Positions 1,500 through 43,665 of a stretch of DNA of 64,000 nucleotides are shown here, piece after piece. The notes beneath the pieces were generated by a model. The model was given only the letters and a program-made list of their open reading frames with translations. It was not told where the DNA came from and made no database searches. The stretch lies in the IMG/VR virus record IMGVR_UViG_3300029288_000055, positions 234,764 through 298,763 of that record. One strand, written 5' to 3'. The stretch comes from a virus. Lineage: Duplodnaviria > Heunggongvirae > Uroviricota > Caudoviricetes. A program made the position numbers and the translations under genes. Within the stretch, counting starts at the first letter, position 1. Every line of letters starts with the position of its first letter.

Positions 1500-1504
1500 C
1501 AGAC

Positions 1505-1591
1505 TGCGGATTAGAGAAGTTGGTCTATCTCGCTGGTCTCATAAGCCAGAACCCCCATAAGGGGTCAGGGGTTCGAATCCCTTATCCGCTA
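1505..1591 (+). tRNA. tRNA with CAT anticodon, initiator-like, with atypical long variable arm
   Basis: Acceptor TGCGGAT/ATCCGCT with 1:72 mismatch, A73, loop CTCATAA, extra stem ACCCC-CATAA-GGGGT, T arm AGGGG-TTCGAAT-CCCTT. Confidence 0.85.
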
Positions 1592-1628
1592 CAAAGAAAT
1601 TCCAACATGAAGAATTTTCAAAATTTTT

Positions 1629-1657
1629 GTAACTTTTATTTATTTATATTCGTATAA
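1629..1657 (+). promoter_or_regulatory. ECF-type phage promoter GTAAC-N17-CGTATAA
   Basis: Exact match to the motif repeated 35 times in the window; lies just upstream of ORF 1675. Confidence 0.8.
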
Positions 1658-1674
1658 AAAGAAAATTAAGAATT

Positions 1675-2485
1675 ATGAAAAATCAGTTGAAAGTTGAAAT
1701 AGTAGAAATGTTTGTCGCAAAACCTGACAGAAATAGAGTTTATTTCGGATGCATTAAAAGAAGCAGAAACGAAAAAGGCGAAATGAATCTTTTCAGTCGT
1801 ATTGCTATGCCTGATGGTGATGTACTCTGTGCAAACGAAACAGATCAGTTAGTTCTTGCAAAAAATCTTAACAGCATGGCGGTTATGATACTTGACATGG
1901 ACATTCATAACGATACAGGTATTTCCACCGAAATGTTCAAATTGAAGTTTTATCATAATTAGATGAAAGATTTTGAATTATTGAAAAGAACTTATCCTAT
2001 TTCGGAGTTTGATCGTCCATGCGATGGTCTTTTCTTTATAATGGAAAACAGCACGCCTGAAGAACGAATGACATGGGGCATAAGTGGTAGAGGTATTAAT
2101 GCCAGAGAAGAACTACAACAAAAAATAAAAAAAGGTGAGAAGTACATTTATCAGGTAGCAAAGGATAAGGGTGAATTCAAAGTAATGTGTCTATGTTTTA
2201 GTAATTATATGATAATAAGAAAATATATTTTTAAATTGGAGGACGAATAAAATGAATGATTTTACAAAATTTTGGTTTGAAGGTAATTTATATTTTGGAA
2301 TGGTGAATGATCTTGATGACTTACAAAAAGTATTTCATGAATACGAAACTCACATGACAAAAGACGAAATACTTGATAAAGCAGTAAATAAAGATGAAAC
2401 TCTTACTGAATTTGGATTAAGGTTAGAACATCATGGTAAAGTAACACTACGTCAATTTTTAACAGATAAAGGAATTAAAATATAA
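1675..2485 (+). other. Three hypothetical CDSs (1675-1962, 1963-2250, 2252-2485)
   Basis: Abutting ORFs; the first ends in TAG immediately followed in frame by the ATG of the second. Confidence 0.65.
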
Positions 2486-2549: not shown

Positions 2550-2621
2550 GCTTCCATGACCGAATGGCTATGGTATCGGTCTCTAAAACCGAGTGTGCGG
2601 GTTCGATTCCTGCTGGAAGCA
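2550..2621 (+). tRNA. Amber suppressor tRNA (anticodon CTA), tRNA-Trp-like anticodon arm
   Basis: Acceptor GCTTCCA/TGGAAGC, A73; anticodon arm TCGGT-CTCTAAA-ACCGA; variable GTGT; T arm GCGGG-TTCGATT-CCTGC. Confidence 0.92.
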
Positions 2622-2635
2622 CAAAAAAATTAATT

Positions 2636-3850: not shown

Positions 3851-4264
3851 ATGATCAAAAATGAAAACGAACATGAAGCATTCACTTCAAAACTTGACAA
3901 AACAATAGATACTAATATTAATAATATTATACTTAATTCAAAAGGTGGATTTTCTGCAGACGATGAAGAATATGAAAACAAAACTGAAGTATCATCAATT
4001 AAACCCCTTGGAGATATTCTTGAAATACCAAAAGTAAAAGAAATTACAACCGAAGTTGAGGCAGACTTAGTACAGCAGAATCAAGAAGAAACAGAACCAA
4101 AAGAACTTACTGAAGAAGAAAAACACGCAAAATTGCTTGAAGCAATTAAGCAATCTCATATCAGATATCATCCCAAAAAACAATTTGGTGTTGCCTATAA
4201 ACAAAAAAGGAAAGCAAAAAATAAGATGCAGAGAAAATCTCGCAAGTTAAGTCGTAAAAAATAA
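3851..4264 (+). CDS. Hypothetical protein with acidic middle and very basic C-terminus
   Basis: ORF track 3788-4264; ATG 3851 is the more plausible start. Confidence 0.65.
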   Translation: MIKNENEHEAFTSKLDKTIDTNINNIILNSKGGFSADDEEYENKTEVSSIKPLGDILEIPKVKEITTEVEADLVQQNQEETEPKELTEEEKHAKLLEAIKQSHIRYHPKKQFGVAYKQKRKAKNKMQRKSRKLSRKK

Positions 4265-5418
4265 TGGCAGTGACAGGATATACAGGCGGTAAAGAACTTA
4301 TACCAAAGAAATCAATAAGGTCTCACTATAGCAAACCTTCTGAAAAAAAACCATATATTATGGCTGATATAAAACCTTTTGAGAAAGAGCAATTACGTGT
4401 TGATCAGGACATTTGGCTTCCACCTTCTACTGGTGATACTCCCAACTGGAATATAGTGGGTGATAATCGCATTAAAAAAGTTTTTAAAATCGAAGTCGGT
4501 AATATACCTGACGAAGAAATCGAAGACTATATAAAAAAGGTTGCAGAGAAATTCAAAGCAGTCGTTCGTCCCATGCCTGACTTAGACTGTGGGATATATC
4601 CAAACGTATATCACGAAAATGAATTATTTTTACTAACTAATATAGAAAAAAAGATGCCAGAACAACCAGATTTACAGAAAATACATGATGCACTTTACCC
4701 TAAGAATAGTGCTCATTACATGCACGTAATACCTAACAGTCATTTTTGGACTGATTTAAGTCAAATCACATATTCAATTCAACATGAATTGGAAAGGCAG
4801 AAACGTGAAGCTGAAGTCAAAGACAATAATTCAATTTATATTGGTGAACCTTTGACCAGAGATTATATATTAATTGGTCTGGGCAACTCACTCATGCGTG
4901 GTTACAATTTAAAACAAGATAAAAACGTAAAACTGAATCCTTCTGATTTTATTATATTTCAATCTATTGAAGATATGATTGTATATGCTCAAAGTGAAAG
5001 ATTTAACTTAGAAGGTTTTAGTAGTATAATTAGTAATACAATTAATGTAGGATTTAACTTAACAAACGGAATTAAAATGGAAAGAGAACATGTTTACAAA
5101 CGTATTGATGGTGAAAGAAACTATCAAGACATAGTAGGAAAGAGTGGTCAACGTGGTGATATTCCAGACGAAGAAAAACCAGTAGCTGAATGGCTTAATT
5201 ATATTGAATACCATTTAAGCAAAGCTAAAGATTGTAATTATCATTTACGTAAAGATAATGCACTTGAAGAATTACGTAAAGTAACTGCACTTGCAGTTCG
5301 TGCTATGGAAATTCATGGTTGTCCTGAAAGAAGAATGCCAAATCGTATTGGCAATATTACAATAAATCCTGATGGCACAACCACTTCTTGTGATAACAAT
5401 TGTGATTGTAAAAAATAA
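4264..5418 (+). CDS. Composite protein: T4-type portal-like segment plus C-terminal MazG-like helical domain
   Basis: KKVFKIEVGNIPDEEIEDYIKKVAEKFK resembles the T4-like portal RxFxIDVGN segment; EELRKVTALAVRAME resembles MazG-like NTP pyrophosphatases. Confidence 0.45.
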   Translation: MAVTGYTGGKELIPKKSIRSHYSKPSEKKPYIMADIKPFEKEQLRVDQDIWLPPSTGDTPNWNIVGDNRIKKVFKIEVGNIPDEEIEDYIKKVAEKFKAVVRPMPDLDCGIYPNVYHENELFLLTNIEKKMPEQPDLQKIHDALYPKNSAHYMHVIPNSHFWTDLSQITYSIQHELERQKREAEVKDNNSIYIGEPLTRDYILIGLGNSLMRGYNLKQDKNVKLNPSDFIIFQSIEDMIVYAQSERFNLEGFSSIISNTINVGFNLTNGIKMEREHVYKRIDGERNYQDIVGKSGQRGDIPDEEKPVAEWLNYIEYHLSKAKDCNYHLRKDNALEELRKVTALAVRAMEIHGCPERRMPNRIGNITINPDGTTTSCDNNCDCKK

Positions 5419-17209: not shown

Positions 17210-18134
17210 TTAATAATTCTTCGGTCTGGGGTCTTCTTTACACCATTTTTGATACAAATCAATCTTTCTTTTCATCATCCTTGCTTCTTTTTGTATTTCA
17301 TCAAGTGATGTTGCAAGCAATATTTTATCGATTGGAAATCCTGATGGCGAACTATCATCAAGATATCTACCAAGGAAAGCATTGCCACTGTCGGCAAGTT
17401 TGTGTATTTCGGGAGAGTTAGGATATAATTCTTTAACTTCTCTGATTAATTCTGGTGTATACATATTATTTAATTTTAAGGGGTTAATACTGATTAAATT
17501 CTGGTATCCAACGTTTTGGAAGTCTTTTAAATGAAAGTGTTACTTTTTTTATTTCTTCTTTATCTGTCTTATAATCAGAATATGGTCTGATCTGATATTT
17601 CCAATCTCTTTTCTTTTTTGTTGGCTTAAAGATACCAATATTATCTTTCCAGAAATCCCAAATATCTCTATGCTGTCCATGCCACCATAATGAATAATTC
17701 ACGAAATAATGTGTGTAATTCTTCTTTAGATATGTTTCAACTTCTTTATAATATCCTCTAAGGACAAAATTACCGTCATTTCGTGAATATACAAAAGCAA
17801 GTGTACGTGCACCACCATACCATTCAGGGTTGCCACTATCTGGGACAAAAATAACGGGATATTGTTTCTCAGATGTTCCTGTTATACTTATAATATGATT
17901 TGCTTTTTCAATTCTTTTAAAACTTTCACGAATATCTTTCATTGTAAATTTTTCACCTGTTATTGGATTAAGACCCCGTGTTTCAGTATCACAATAGAAT
18001 TCACGTTTAGGTAATTGTGAACTTGGCACATCATTACATGTTTTTTGTTTACCACATATTTCACATAAACCAACTGACTTCATTATTGAAGTAGGGTATC
18101 CATTTTCTTTTGCACAATCATCACAGTAAAACAT
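17210..18134 (-). other. Two hypothetical CDSs (17210-17464, 17484-18134); the second has an N-terminal CxxC..CxxC
   Basis: ORF track; minus-strand unit downstream of the RNA cluster. Confidence 0.65.
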
Positions 18135-18161
18135 ATCTTTTCAGTTTTAAATTTAAAAAAA

Positions 18162-18320
18162 GTTTAGGAAGATGTTGAAGTATATCGGTTAGGTTAAGCA
18201 TTATTTATAAGACCAGACTTCAACATCTTTGGGTTAGGTTAAGCAATATATATTAAACCACTTATCTGACTTGAGACAATTTTACCTTGCGATAAATCTA
18301 TCTTTCCTCAAAACCTAAAC
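18162..18320 (-). ncRNA. Candidate structured ncRNA following the tRNA-like RNA
   Basis: Closing GTTTAGG/CCTAAAC, 13-bp stem AAGATGTTGAAGT/ACTTCAACATCTT, 14-nt repeat TGCTTAACCTAACC twice. Confidence 0.55.
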
Positions 18321-18322
18321 AA

Positions 18323-18451
18323 TGGTGGTCTAAGAAGGAATCGAACCTACTGATACATGCGCTTCAGATATCACTCCACGCAGAACTCAATCTCCAACCT
18401 TCCATCAGACTAATTATGCATTTTCATCAAACTTCGGGTGATTGTTAGACC
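18323..18451 (-). ncRNA. Oversized tRNA-like RNA (129 nt, encoded CCA)
   Basis: Acceptor GGTCTAA/TTAGACC-A-CCA, T arm GTAGG-TTCGATT-CCTTC, D-like ATCA/TGAT, stem TGCAT/ATGTA enclosing an insert of about 55 nt; ECF promoter 18476-18504 (-). Confidence 0.75.
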
Positions 18452-18500
18452 ATGTTAAAGAACTTTTGCAAATCCTTATACGAATAAAAATATAAAAAGG

Positions 18501-19063
18501 TTACACTTTATTTAAATTAATATGAAAATGTCTTTTACATTCTTTGGCATATACCTGAGTTTCCTTGATTTGCACATCAAAATCTGTACTTACATTAAAA
18601 AACATTGAACTGACATTTACTGGCAATCCATCAGGATATGGTGTGGTAATACTAAACCAAAGATTTTTGCCAAGTCCACTATCCTCAACATTAAAAGAAT
18701 TATTTTCCATCAACTCCAGTGCATAATTGAGTTGCTTGTACAAATCAACCTCATCTTTACTGTGCTCAACAGAAGTGTTAATATTTAACATTCTGTTATC
18801 AAATACACTCAACATAATATTTAATTTTTAACTTCTGCTCCTGTTGACGATATCGTGATATTAACATTAATATATTCAATAGGTGTTACTGGTCTGAAAT
18901 AAATGTTATGATGAATTTCATCATCTTTTTCTTCATATTTTTCTCTTATTTCACCAATAAATTTACCTTTGTAATAACATTTACCATCTTCATCAATTGT
19001 ATATCTGGTTGCATGTTTTTCATCATGACAAATTAACGCCAACATTAGATTATTTATTATCAT
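18501..19063 (-). other. Two hypothetical CDSs (18501-18815, 18821-19063)
   Basis: ORF track, same strand and adjacent. Confidence 0.6.
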
Positions 19064-23816: not shown

Positions 23817-24470
23817 ATGAAACAATATCCTGAAATAAATTACTATGGTGATTATTGGGGTCTGCCTGTAATTGCATTCGAAAAACTCGATGGTAGCAAC
23901 ATGCGTTTCGAATACAGTCATAAAAGAGGCTTCTATAAATTCGGCACAAGAGGTATGATGATTGATAGATCATCAACTCCCTTTGGCTTTGCCATTAATT
24001 TATTTCTTGAGAAATATAATGAGTCTCTTTGCAAAATATTTAAAACTAAAGATTATAGAAATTCATTAGCCTTTGTATGCTTCGCAGAACTTTATGGATT
24101 TAATTCAGAATTCGGACAGCATGAATTTGGCAAAGATGTGTTTGATATTACTTTATTCGATGTAAGTGAATATAAACATGGTCTAATATCTCCACGACAG
24201 TTTGTAAACGACTTTCAAGAAATTGGTATACCAAAGGTTATTTATGAGGGAAACCTTAACAGAGACTTCGTAAACAGGGTTAAAACAAATGAGTTTGGTT
24301 TGAAGGAAGGTGTGGTAGCAAAGGGCACAATTCCAAGAAAAAAATCTGGCGAAAATCTTTATTATTGCAAGATCAAAACAGATGGTTGGTTTGAACGTTT
24401 AAGAGCAAGAAGACCAGATTTATATAGTACTGAATCTAAACAATTACTTCACGATACAAAACAACAATAA
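23817..24470 (+). CDS. RNA ligase, Rnl2-like nucleotidyltransferase domain
   Basis: Motif I EKLDGSN, FAELYG, LFDV, motif IV EGVV, motif V KIK. Confidence 0.8.
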   Translation: MKQYPEINYYGDYWGLPVIAFEKLDGSNMRFEYSHKRGFYKFGTRGMMIDRSSTPFGFAINLFLEKYNESLCKIFKTKDYRNSLAFVCFAELYGFNSEFGQHEFGKDVFDITLFDVSEYKHGLISPRQFVNDFQEIGIPKVIYEGNLNRDFVNRVKTNEFGLKEGVVAKGTIPRKKSGENLYYCKIKTDGWFERLRARRPDLYSTESKQLLHDTKQQ

Positions 24471-33400: not shown

Positions 33401-34063
33401 ATGAGAACAAAAGTAAACAAGTCGCAACTGATGAAAAAAGCATGGCAACTGTTTAAAAATCAGCCTGTTAAGACTGACGAAAAGTTTGCCGAATGTTTAA
33501 GGTCTGCATGGCAAATTGCCAAAACTGCACCCTCAATTGAAAGTCTGTATAAGGCTCATTATCAGGCTCTTTACAACTTCATATTTTTGAAGTTACACAA
33601 CGTTGAAGTGTCACAAGAATTGACAAATGACGTGTTTATCAAAGCAAATCAGAACATGCACCTATATAATAGCGAAAAGTCGCAAATCAGTACTTGGCTA
33701 CATAACATAGCTAAAAACTTGGTTATAGACTATTATCGTGCCGACAATTCAGACAAATATATAAACGTGTCAAATTTCAATGATGCGGAAACAGGCAAAG
33801 AGGTTTATCAATTTGTTGATAGTCAAACAACTGACAGTATAATGGACAATAAAGAACTGTTAGCGAATGTTCAAAAAGCAATGTCCAAACTCAAACCAAA
33901 ATATCAGAAAGTCGCTGATTTATACTTCATTGCAGACAAACCTTACAATGAAATAGCTGAACTGTTGGAATTACCGCTTGGCAGTGTCAAAGGTATGGTA
34001 AACAGGATTAAAAGCATGTTAACAAGTCAGTCAGAACTACAATACCATTATCAGAACATGTAA
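33401..34063 (+). CDS. ECF (sigma-70 group 4) RNA polymerase sigma factor with short N-terminal extension
   Basis: Region 2: ELTNDVFIKA...STWLHNIAKNLVIDYYR. Region 4: LKPKYQKVADLYFIADKPYNEIAELLELPLGSVKGMVNR. Confidence 0.93.
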   Translation: MRTKVNKSQLMKKAWQLFKNQPVKTDEKFAECLRSAWQIAKTAPSIESLYKAHYQALYNFIFLKLHNVEVSQELTNDVFIKANQNMHLYNSEKSQISTWLHNIAKNLVIDYYRADNSDKYINVSNFNDAETGKEVYQFVDSQTTDSIMDNKELLANVQKAMSKLKPKYQKVADLYFIADKPYNEIAELLELPLGSVKGMVNRIKSMLTSQSELQYHYQNM

Positions 34064-43197: not shown

Positions 43198-43323
43198 GGA
43201 GTTGTTCGCAGAATTGTTTTTAAATTGAAAACAACGGTGCTGCAAATTGTCTGAGACGGTAATACCAATGTACAGCAATCTTGTTGAATAACAAGCATGT
43301 AGGTTCGAATCCCACCAACTCCA
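43198..43323 (+). ncRNA. Oversized tRNA-like / tmRNA-TLD-like RNA (126 nt)
   Basis: Acceptor GGAGTTG/CAACTCC-A, T arm GTAGG-TTCGAAT-CCCAC, internal hairpins TTGTTTT/AAAACAA and CTTGTT/AACAAG; ECF promoter 43135-43163. Confidence 0.75.
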
Positions 43324-43329
43324 CGAAAA

Positions 43330-43665
43330 ACCCAACCGAAAGCCTGTGGCTTCGTTAATCACGTTGGTAAGTTGTCTTGAAAGTACAAATTCTTTTCGAG
43401 TTTTTCGACCCGTAGTTTACTACATGCTAAGAAAGTATAGAATCGAAGGCGTACCAGAGAGAAACCTAAACCCAACTGATCGAGTTCAGCGCAGGTGTGC
43501 AAACGTCCCTAAATGCCCTTAATTGGATGATATGTGGGATTAACGGAACTGGTTACTGAGGACGGTGATTGACTAACCGATTGCAAGTCGCTCTTGCAAG
43601 TCAACTTCAGTAGAGATACCCTGACATAGAGCAGCCTAATTGGAGTGCGTGTCGGGGTTTCTTAT
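43330..43665 (+). ncRNA. Candidate large structured ncRNA (about 330 nt)
   Basis: No ORF, GC above background, nested stems GAGAAACC/GGTTTCTT, GATACCCTGACA/TGTCGGGGTTTC, TTGAC..TTGCAAG/CTTGCAA..GTCAA, CGTCC/GGACG. Confidence 0.6.

What the first reader, a model, noticed from the sequence alone, without database searches (positions are those of the whole stretch)
18323..18451. Oversized tRNA-like RNA no. 1: intact acceptor, T arm and CCA, with about 55 nt replacing the anticodon loop
Seen on the minus strand: GGTCTAA...TTAGACC-A-CCA, D-like and anticodon-like stems, an insert in place of the loop, and its own ECF promoter 25 nt upstream. It is too short for tmRNA and lacks G3-U70. Inference: an intron-containing tRNA or a tRNA mimic (decoy for anticodon nucleases, Y-RNA-like, or a tRNA-sensor antagonist).
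Basis: partly seen in the sequence, partly recalled or inferred. Interest (0 to 1): 0.7.

Follow-up and report, generated by a model that had tools for sequence, protein, structure and literature searches.

The report
Self-pairing tRNA-shaped jumbo phage RNA
A giant phage carries a conserved gene for a 129-base RNA that keeps the ends and elbow of a tRNA but has no anticodon; its two enlarged arms each end in a short self-complementary loop, which suggests that copies of the RNA link together, though this and its job are untested.

Summary
The gene is real. It lies on a 363-kb jumbo-phage contig, directly behind a phage promoter. Twelve distinct homologues (72-98% identical) give a covarying fold (14 compensated pairs), so it is not a pseudogene.

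The proposed D stem is not conserved. The extra sequence is a 41-nt hairpin inserted in the D loop plus a 36-nt arm at the anticodon position. No anticodon loop exists, and no single excision restores a tRNA, so an intron is unlikely.

Both arm tips carry an invariant palindrome (AUGCAU, GAUAUC). A sister tRNA-framed RNA in the same cassette of related phages has two loops whose palindromes change yet stay self-complementary. Best reading: a non-decoding, tRNA-processed RNA that self-associates through two kissing loops (inferred). Main rival: a monomeric pseudoknotted mimic like T4 species 1 RNA.

There is no Rfam match, and it is not detectably homologous to T4 or T5 RNAs, tmRNA or YrlA. The scan has reported this class of RNA, not this family, on other phage DNA.

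The parts
18323..18451 (-). tRNA-framed non-coding RNA gene, 129 nt (RNA nt n = window 18452 - n)
   Evidence: 12 homologues aligned; model R1 scores members 127-150 bits and everything else at most 26.5
18445..18451 (-). Acceptor stem P1, 5' strand (nt 1-7)
   Evidence: 84 of 84 cells paired, four pairs with compensatory changes
18323..18333 (-). Acceptor stem 3' strand (nt 119-125), discriminator A and CCA (nt 126-129)
   Evidence: discriminator A invariant; tail ACCA in 2, ACAA in 9, ACGA in 1 of 12
18437..18444 (-). 5' strands of P2a (nt 8-12, D-stem equivalent) and P2b (nt 13-15)
   Evidence: pair 9:63 seen as G-C, C-G and A-U; pair 8:64 as C-G, U-A and U-G; pair 15:53 as C-G and U-A
18388..18399 (-). 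3' strands of P2b (nt 53-55) and P2a (nt 60-64) with the UGGA bulge (nt 56-59); invariant G57 G58 sit where D-loop G18 G19 would
   Evidence: removing nt 13-54 leaves a D-arm-like hairpin; docking on the T loop is inference
18401..18435 (-). Hairpin inserted in the D loop: GAA/GGA purine internal loop (nt 17-19, 49-51), helix P3 (nt 20-25, 43-48) and a 17-nt terminal loop
   Evidence: P3 92% paired with four compensated pairs; sheared G-A pairing of GAA/GGA is inference from known motifs
18416..18421 (-). Palindrome 1, AUGCAU (nt 31-36), in the arm-1 terminal loop, flanked by adenines
   Evidence: invariant in 12 of 12; not part of any DNA scan pattern used to find homologues
18352..18387 (-). 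Arm 2 at the anticodon position: helix P4 (nt 65-74, 90-100) and a 15-nt purine-rich tip (nt 75-89); no 7-nt anticodon loop
   Evidence: P4 97% paired; pair 72:92 seen as C-G, U-G and U-A; the lower half is weak and competes with a possible pseudoknot
18367..18372 (-). Palindrome 2, GAUAUC (nt 80-85), in the arm-2 tip
   Evidence: 0 of 6 positions vary, against 7 of 9 flanking positions; it was in the scan pattern for 4 of the 12 copies (L013, L014, L015, L018)
18334..18350 (-). T arm (nt 102-118)
   Evidence: GGUUCGA invariant; pair 104:116 seen as G-C and A-U
18476..18504 (-). Phage promoter motif GTAACC-N16-CGTATAA (ECF-like AAC/CGT)
   Evidence: 16 copies in the window, 32 on the contig; directly upstream in 10 of 12 homologues, 12 nt before G1 in 8 of them
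18453..18463 (-). boxA-like motif GTTCTTTAACA in the leader
   Evidence: also precedes the RNA at 43198, the phage tmRNA and one tRNA gene and many modules of related cassettes; likeness to rrn boxA is from my own knowledge
18160..18321 (-). Downstream structured RNA with a duplicated GCTTAACCTAACC motif, ending in a terminator-like hairpin; constant last module of the cassette
   Evidence: present in most related cassettes, with or without the tRNA-framed RNA
18501..18815 (-). 104-aa gene of unknown function upstream of the cassette (syntenic marker)
   Evidence: 32 homologues; small alpha/beta fold, best Z 8.6, no functional clue
17484..18134 (-). 216-aa gene of unknown function downstream of the cassette (syntenic marker)
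   Evidence: 217 homologues; best structural match Z 4.6
33401..34063 (+). Phage-encoded sigma factor (regions 2 and 4), candidate reader of the promoter
   Evidence: Pfam Sigma70_r2 and r4_2; link to this promoter is inference

Best explanation
A non-decoding, unspliced RNA built on a tRNA chassis that self-associates through two palindromic kissing loops. Step 1, expression (promoter shown; use inferred): the phage promoter transcribes a non-coding cassette. Step 2, maturation (inferred): the intact acceptor/T-arm minihelix and elbow let RNase P, 3' trimming and a CCA-adding enzyme release a stable RNA, as for the phage's tRNAs. Step 3, fold (shown by covariation): a cloverleaf with a long hairpin inserted in the D loop and an enlarged arm in place of the anticodon arm. 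Step 4, assembly (inferred): AUGCAU and GAUAUC each pair with the same loop of another copy, giving dimers, or rings and chains because there are two such sites. Step 5, purpose (speculative, about 0.25 on its own): the assembly presents several tRNA ends and elbows and acts as a multivalent decoy for host proteins that recognise tRNA ends or shape, such as defence toxins or tRNA sensors.
For: Fold: 96% of cells paired, 14 of 39 pairs compensated, 0 of 500 shuffles as high, slid controls 35-50% paired; RNAalifold finds essentially the same fold unprompted. tRNA-like handling: invariant T loop, GG bulge and discriminator A; most copies end in ACAA, the commonest tail among this phage's tRNA genes (CAA in 20 of 39), and the contig encodes a PolyA_pol/CCA-type domain. 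Palindromes: 2 of the 7 fully invariant hexamer windows are palindromes against a 2% background; shuffled loops hold one in 17% and 11% of cases; in the arm-2 tip all 7 variable positions miss the palindrome. Independent support from the same cassette: a 160-165-nt sister RNA has one loop reading UUCGAA (6 copies) or UACGUA (4 copies), and UGCGCA and AGUACU in two distant relatives, always between G and A; its other loop reads GUAUAC, UGUACA or GCAUGU, all self-complementary. The same switching between palindromes supported intermolecular bridges seen by cryo-EM in OLE and GOLLD (10.1101/2024.12.08.627333).
Against: In this family both palindromes are invariant, so there is no direct covariation for intermolecular pairing; invariance also fits protein binding. 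AUGCAU can instead pair within the molecule with nt 94-99 (isolated duplex about -4.1 kcal/mol in 9 of 12 copies, against about -0.5 for the competing lower P4). Part of GAUAUC can pair in a 3-bp hairpin (94% paired). Both hexamers are A/U-rich and would form weak kisses. Twelve related sequences are few. There are no expression, processing or binding data. The RNA is accessory: it is absent from two complete related genomes. No target protein was identified.
Confidence: 0.5

Rival explanations
1. Monomeric pseudoknotted tRNA mimic of the T4 species 1 design: the arm-1 loop folds back and pairs with nt 94-99 beside the T arm, giving a compact globule on a tRNA top half that binds a host or phage protein.
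For: The helix is 98.6% pairable and stronger in isolation than the lower P4 it would displace; the window copy has two mismatches in lower P4. T4 rnaC relatives have a long first arm whose tip is complementary to the second arm's loop, and an A-rich linker before a stem that ends next to the T arm.
Against: No compensatory change in the helix. It is weakened in L019 and L021 (-0.6 kcal/mol) and shortened in L018, where lower P4 is kept by a compensatory change. It does not explain the second invariant palindrome or the covarying palindromes of the sister RNA.
Confidence: 0.25
2. The tRNA frame is mainly a processing and stability device ('punctuation') for the polycistronic non-coding cassette, and the arms are a monomeric protein-binding cargo or help mature the downstream repeat RNA.
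For: The cassette is an exchangeable row of tRNA-framed and other structured RNAs between one promoter and a constant final module.
Against: The downstream RNA occurs without any upstream tRNA-framed gene (L005, L031), and this RNA occurs alone outside the cassette (L018). Punctuation would not conserve the core so strongly.
Confidence: 0.1
3. Decoy for anticodon nucleases.
For: tRNA-like body, phage-borne, accessory distribution typical of counter-defence genes.
Against: No 7-nt anticodon loop and no conserved anticodon. PrrC recognises the anticodon sequence, its modifications and the stem (PMC3014915), none of which is mimicked.
Confidence: 0.06
4. Intron-containing tRNA that is spliced to a decoding tRNA, like the intron-bearing tRNA genes reported in Lak phages.
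For: Lak phage tRNAs carry conserved predicted introns (PMC6784885). The contig encodes three or four RNA-ligase-family proteins, one about 5.4 kb away. Removing nt 13-54 plus 8 nt of arm 2 gives ARAGORN calls in 9 of 12 copies.
Against: No single excision works in more than 1 of 12 copies; the best double excisions give mixed anticodons (ccg, ctg, cat). No intron-less allele was found. No tRNA intron endonuclease or RtcB was found in the assembly.
Confidence: 0.04
5. Y-RNA (YrlA)-like or mini-tmRNA.
For: tRNA-like top half; the RNA at 43198 has a faint tmRNA score (E 0.075).
Against: No Rfam tmRNA or YrlA match at E up to 10; free 5' and CCA ends rather than a permuted acceptor; no TROVE gene found; no G3-U70; the phage already has a full tmRNA.
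Confidence: 0.03
6. Degenerate pseudogene or chance match.
For: The window copy folds no better than shuffles and carries several mismatches.
Against: Twelve homologues with 14 compensated pairs and a conserved promoter.
Confidence: 0.02

Closest known systems
Phage T4 species 1 RNA (rnaC, 139 nt), with species 2 RNA (rnaD)
   Same: Phage RNA of unknown function from the tRNA region (PMC3014915, PMC9697503). It has a tRNA-like T arm and 3' end, a long first arm with internal loops and AUC/GAU pairs at its base, and a second arm in place of the anticodon arm.
   Different: No detectable homology: R1 scores it 20 bits, no better than ordinary tRNAs; core alignment 47 of 300 shuffles as good. Its two loops are complementary to each other (UUGACG/CGUCAA), not each self-complementary. 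Its acceptor stem is interrupted; here it is perfect.
Phage T5 RNA1 and RNA2 (annotated 'tRNA-like stable RNA with unknown functions', AY543070)
   Same: Oversized tRNA frames (144 and 125 nt) inside phage tRNA arrays, without a normal anticodon arm.
   Different: They keep an ordinary short D arm; R1 scores 16 and 14.5 bits; no core similarity.
GOLLD, ROOL and OLE RNAs
   Same: Structured RNAs that form RNA-only multimers through kissing loops, some of them palindromic; GOLLD and ROOL lie near phage tRNA islands (10.1101/2024.12.08.627333; PMC12990946).
   Different: Several times larger, not built on a tRNA frame, no Rfam match here. Oligomerisation is shown for them and only inferred here.
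Canonical tRNA (Rfam RF00005)
   Same: 7-bp acceptor, 5-bp T stem, T loop, discriminator and CCA, a GG at the D-loop position.
   Different: No unpaired connector at 8-9, a 41-nt D-loop insertion, no anticodon loop; no Rfam or ARAGORN call.
Intron-bearing tRNA genes of Lak megaphages (PMC6784885)
   Same: Oversized tRNA-like genes with conserved extra sequence in very large phages.
   Different: There removal of one predicted intron restores a typed tRNA, and alleles without the intron exist; here no single excision does.
HIV-1 dimerisation initiation site kissing loop (from my own knowledge)
   Same: A palindromic hexamer flanked by two adenines on the 5' side and one on the 3' side, as for AUGCAU here.
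   Different: That loop is 9 nt and its hexamer is G/C-rich; here the loop is 17 nt and A/U-rich. A resemblance only.

Membership tests
Canonical tRNA (RF00005) | 7-bp acceptor stem, discriminator and CCA end | tested here: met
Canonical tRNA (RF00005) | T arm with a standard T loop | tested here: met
   GGUUCGA invariant, stem 90% paired
Canonical tRNA (RF00005) | 3-4-bp D stem with a short D loop | tested here: not met
Canonical tRNA (RF00005) | 5-bp anticodon stem with a 7-nt loop and conserved anticodon | tested here: not met
   36-nt arm with a 15-nt tip; no ARAGORN or Rfam call
Canonical tRNA (RF00005) | Aminoacylation | not testable with these tools
   acceptor pairs 2-5 vary; discriminator A is invariant
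Intron-containing tRNA | One excision restores a canonical tRNA with a conserved anticodon | tested here: not met
   1116 single excisions, at most 1 of 12 called; double excisions give mixed anticodons
Intron-containing tRNA | Splicing machinery or a self-splicing core | tested here: inconclusive
   no intron endonuclease or RtcB found but RNA ligases present; no group I or II Rfam match; the contig may be incomplete
tmRNA (RF00023) | G3-U70 alanine identity pair | tested here: not met
   pair 3 is U-A (9) or C-G (3)
tmRNA (RF00023) | Tag reading frame and pseudoknot domain; Rfam match | tested here: not met
   129 nt, no match at E up to 10; a full tmRNA lies elsewhere on the contig
YrlA / bacterial Y RNA | Permuted tRNA-like module with ends in the Ro60-binding stem (feature from my own knowledge) | tested here: not met
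   ends form a normal acceptor with CCA; no Rfam match
YrlA / bacterial Y RNA | Linked Ro60/TROVE gene | tested here: inconclusive
   none found in the assembly; the host is unknown and the contig may be incomplete
T4 species 1 RNA (rnaC) family | Sequence or covariance-model homology | tested here: not met
   20 bits with R1, tRNA background up to 23; core alignment not above shuffles
T4 species 1 RNA (rnaC) family | Complementarity between the arm-1 tip and the arm-2 loop | tested here: not met
   present in four rnaC relatives; here each loop is self-complementary instead
T4 species 1 RNA (rnaC) family | tRNA top half with two enlarged arms and no anticodon | tested here: met
GOLLD / ROOL / OLE multimeric RNAs | Match to the family model and several hundred nt of ornate structure | tested here: not met
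   129 nt; no Rfam match
GOLLD / ROOL / OLE multimeric RNAs | Palindromic loops that stay palindromic across variants | tested here: inconclusive
   invariant in this family; covarying in the sister family of the same cassette
GOLLD / ROOL / OLE multimeric RNAs | RNA-only multimer in vitro | not testable with these tools
   needs native gel, SEC-MALS or cryo-EM

The most novel reading that the evidence does not exclude
Jumbo phages encode natural tRNA-based building blocks: tRNA frames fitted with two orthogonal palindromic kissing loops that assemble into RNA-only rings or networks displaying several tRNA ends. This RNA and its sister family would be small, tractable members of such a class, and would suggest what the long-unexplained T4 and T5 tRNA-like RNAs do.
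Probability: 0.3. Interest if true: 0.85.

Novelty: new variant of a known kind. Interest (0 to 1): 0.62.

Why it matters
Phage tRNA-like stable RNAs (T4 RNAC and RNAD, T5 RNA1 and RNA2) are still listed as of unknown function. This family supplies a covariation-backed structure and one sharp, cheap prediction: two named hexamers drive self-assembly, and changing each to another palindrome should keep it while breaking the palindrome should abolish it. If true, it links phage tRNA mimics to the recently solved RNA-only multimers (OLE, GOLLD, ROOL) in a molecule of only 129 nt, and offers a natural tRNA scaffold for RNA nanostructure design. It also shows that standard tRNA and Rfam annotation misses a whole exchangeable RNA cassette in these phages.

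Tried and rejected
Rfam scans of the window, the 361-nt region and nine related loci gave no family match. blastn against cultured phages with the window copy and with L039 gave only short chance or T-arm hits. Pattern scans of IMG/VR, including one that avoided both palindromes, found no members beyond L008 and L009; the 13 other hits were chance and scored nothing with R1. L010, L011, L012 and L017 were also chance matches.

By eye I considered likeness to 5S rRNA loops C and E, to 16S helix 23, to the SAM-I riboswitch topology and to a G-quadruplex; none had an Rfam match or conserved pairing, so I dropped them. An alternative register for the upper P2 helix (nt 14-17 with 55-58) is similar in energy but has no compensatory change and four mismatched cells, so the register with the UGGA bulge was preferred. 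The RNA at 43198-43326 has the same length but is not a homologue (22 bits with R1; 59 of 500 shuffles).

The flanking 104-aa and 216-aa proteins gave no functional clue (Pfam; atlas, best score 0.81; folds); lack of a match does not show a new fold. A search for antisense targets of the conserved loops in the assembly gave only short scattered matches. Literature searches found no description of this RNA; the supplement of the large viral structured-RNA screen (PMC10690425) was not held, so a listing there cannot be excluded.

Full report
Setting. The window lies on contig C1 (362,763 bp, 30.5% G+C) of the held assembly. C1 carries 56 ARAGORN tRNA calls and a tmRNA, and its relatives in IMG/VR are 349-365-kb virus records, so it is best read as a jumbo-phage genome binned with a small bacterial genome. 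The host is unknown. The finding sits in a short minus-strand cassette (about 17210-19063) inside a plus-strand region.

Observation. The sequence at 18451-18323 has a perfect 7-bp acceptor stem, discriminator A, CCA and a T arm with a standard loop. A scan of the whole assembly for acceptor-plus-T-arm frames found only three single elements over 100 nt on C1: this one, 43198-43326 and one near C1 position 2800. The promoter motif GTAACC-N16-CGTATAA ends 24-25 nt upstream and occurs 16 times in the window against 0.02 by chance. A phage sigma factor lies at 33401-34063; that it reads this promoter is inference. ARAGORN and Rfam miss the element. Alone it folds no better than shuffles.

Homologues. 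Using the two flanking proteins and DNA patterns I collected 12 distinct copies, 72-98% identical. A covariance model separates them cleanly: 127-150 bits against at most 26.5 for anything else. Eleven lie in the same cassette and one outside it; ten are directly behind the promoter motif. About twelve related cassettes lack the RNA, as do two complete related genomes, so it is an accessory module.

Structure (RNA numbering, nt 1 = 18451). The supported fold is: P1, nt 1-7 with 119-125; P2a, 8-12 with 60-64; a UGGA bulge at 56-59; P2b, 13-15 with 53-55; a GAA/GGA purine loop; P3, 20-25 with 43-48; a 17-nt terminal loop; P4, 65-74 with 90-100, with a 15-nt tip; and the T arm, 102-118. It is 96% paired with 14 compensated pairs; 0 of 500 shuffles reach this, and slid controls fall to 35-50%. 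RNAalifold finds essentially the same fold unprompted. I derived the structure from these same sequences, which favours it over the controls, but single pairs such as 9:63 (G-C, C-G, A-U) and 72:92 (C-G, U-G, U-A) are hard to explain otherwise. In tRNA terms P2a is the D stem, the invariant G57 G58 stand where G18 G19 would, a 41-nt hairpin is inserted in the D loop, and P4 replaces the anticodon arm. There is no anticodon loop.

Intron test. None of 1116 single excisions gave an ARAGORN call in more than 1 of 12 copies. The best of 9820 double excisions gave 9 calls with three different anticodons. This fits descent from a tRNA but not splicing to a decoder. No intron endonuclease or RtcB was found, but RNA ligases are present, so enzymes alone do not decide the point.

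Palindromic loops. Outside the T loop the longest invariant blocks are in the two arm tips, and each holds a perfect palindrome: AUGCAU (31-36) and GAUAUC (80-85). Two of seven invariant hexamer windows are palindromes against a 2% background. Shuffled loops contain one in 17% and 11% of cases. In the arm-2 tip none of the six palindrome positions varies while seven of nine flanking positions do. GAUAUC was part of the scan pattern for four copies; the other eight include the window copy and seven found through flanking proteins.

Independent support from a sister RNA. The same cassette in related phages often carries a 160-165-nt tRNA-framed RNA with two extra hairpins. One loop reads UUCGAA in six copies and UACGUA in four, and UGCGCA and AGUACU in two distant relatives, always between G and A. 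The other reads GUAUAC, UGUACA or GCAUGU, all self-complementary. Adjacent bases cannot pair within one loop, and such switching between palindromes supported intermolecular bridges in the OLE and GOLLD cryo-EM structures (10.1101/2024.12.08.627333). This is evidence for the sister RNA and only an analogy for the RNA in hand.

Mechanism. Shown: promoter, conservation, fold, lack of an anticodon, two invariant palindromes. Inferred: processing like a tRNA, since most copies end in ACAA like many of the phage's tRNA genes and C1 encodes a PolyA_pol/CCA-type domain; docking of G57 G58 on the T loop; self-association through the two loops. Speculative: a multivalent decoy for host proteins that recognise tRNA ends or shape. 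I put 0.5 on the model up to self-association and about 0.9 on a conserved, unspliced, non-decoding tRNA-framed RNA.

Main rival. That helix is 98.6% pairable and stronger in isolation than the lower P4 it would displace. It has no covariation, is weakened in two copies, and leaves the second palindrome unexplained. A switch between the two states is possible.

Comparison with known RNAs. T4 species 1 RNA is the nearest design: a tRNA top half, a long first arm and a second arm; its role is unknown (PMC3014915; PMC9697503). It is not detectably homologous, and its loops are complementary to each other rather than to themselves. T5 RNA1 and RNA2 are likewise unrelated in sequence. tmRNA and YrlA fail their defining tests. 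I found no paper describing this family. Earlier AI notes of this scan report similar tRNA-framed RNAs, some with self-complementary loops, on other phage DNA; they are leads, not support.

Verdict. A real, undescribed family within a known but unexplained kind of phage RNA, with a better structure than first proposed and a directly testable self-assembly hypothesis. Interest 0.62.

Noticed in passing
L039:2500-2660 (+); also L002:2667-2826, L006:2284-2447, L014:787-950 (-), L015:955-1119, L021:4324-4484, L041:2591-2750, L042:643-802, L043:860-1025: Sister family of 160-165-nt tRNA-framed RNAs with a normal D arm, a short anticodon-position hairpin and a large variable region. Two loops carry palindromes that covary. 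Stronger evidence for kissing-loop assembly than the finding itself; absent at this locus in the window's phage.
   Followed up: partly
window 18160-18321 (-): Structured RNA with a duplicated GCTTAACCTAACC motif and a terminator-like end; the most constant module of the cassette, usually just before the 216-aa gene. Possible attenuator or protein sponge.
   Followed up: partly
window 43198-43326 (+) and about 43330-43665: Second 129-nt tRNA-framed RNA behind the same promoter and boxA-like motif, not homologous to the finding, followed by about 330 nt of structured non-coding sequence.
   Followed up: partly
L008 about 1500-1940 (-); L021 about 3900-4320 (+): A roughly 430-nt structured RNA in the cassette that begins with a stretch recalling the L11-binding region of 23S rRNA (from memory) but has no Rfam match.
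   Followed up: no
L009:8693-8791, L028:2607-2701, L023:4025-4117, L025:3751-3843: A third family of 93-99-nt tRNA-framed RNAs with an enlarged anticodon-position arm carrying a conserved GAAG...GAAGTAC internal loop.
   Followed up: no
L027:603-790, L034:2149-2368, L032:2619-2787, L003:2669-2850, L001:8172-8310 (-): Further oversized tRNA-framed RNAs of 139-220 nt; several have palindromic hexamers in predicted loops (CACGUG, GAUAUC, UGCGCA, AGUACU).
   Followed up: partly
L068 (G000:C1:2300-3700, -): Another non-coding row on the same phage with a degenerate tRNA-like gene, boxA-like motifs and a 176-nt tRNA-framed element at C1 2782-2957.
   Followed up: no
L062:906-1047 (-), L064-L066: T4 rnaC and three relatives keep complementary loops UUGACG and CGUCAA, which could pair within one molecule or between molecules; two relatives have lost the standard T loop.
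   Followed up: partly
L067:467-7207 (-), G000:C1:57963-64706: 2247-aa phage protein with a PolyA_pol/CCA-type nucleotidyltransferase domain and a weak Acb1-like match near the C terminus (E 0.0005, below cut-off).
   Followed up: no
window 2550-2622 (+): tRNA with a CUA (amber) anticodon, although long reading frames on the contig still end in TAG at times (13 of 228).
   Followed up: no
window 23817-24470 (+): RNA-ligase-family gene (PF09414, E 6e-10) about 5.4 kb from the finding; two or three more lie elsewhere on the contig.
   Followed up: no
G000 contig C1; L018: The phage contig is binned inside a 1.27-Mb bacterial genome assembly, and one homologue lies on a 4.8-kb contig of an Izimaplasma assembly; neither shows the host.
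   Followed up: no
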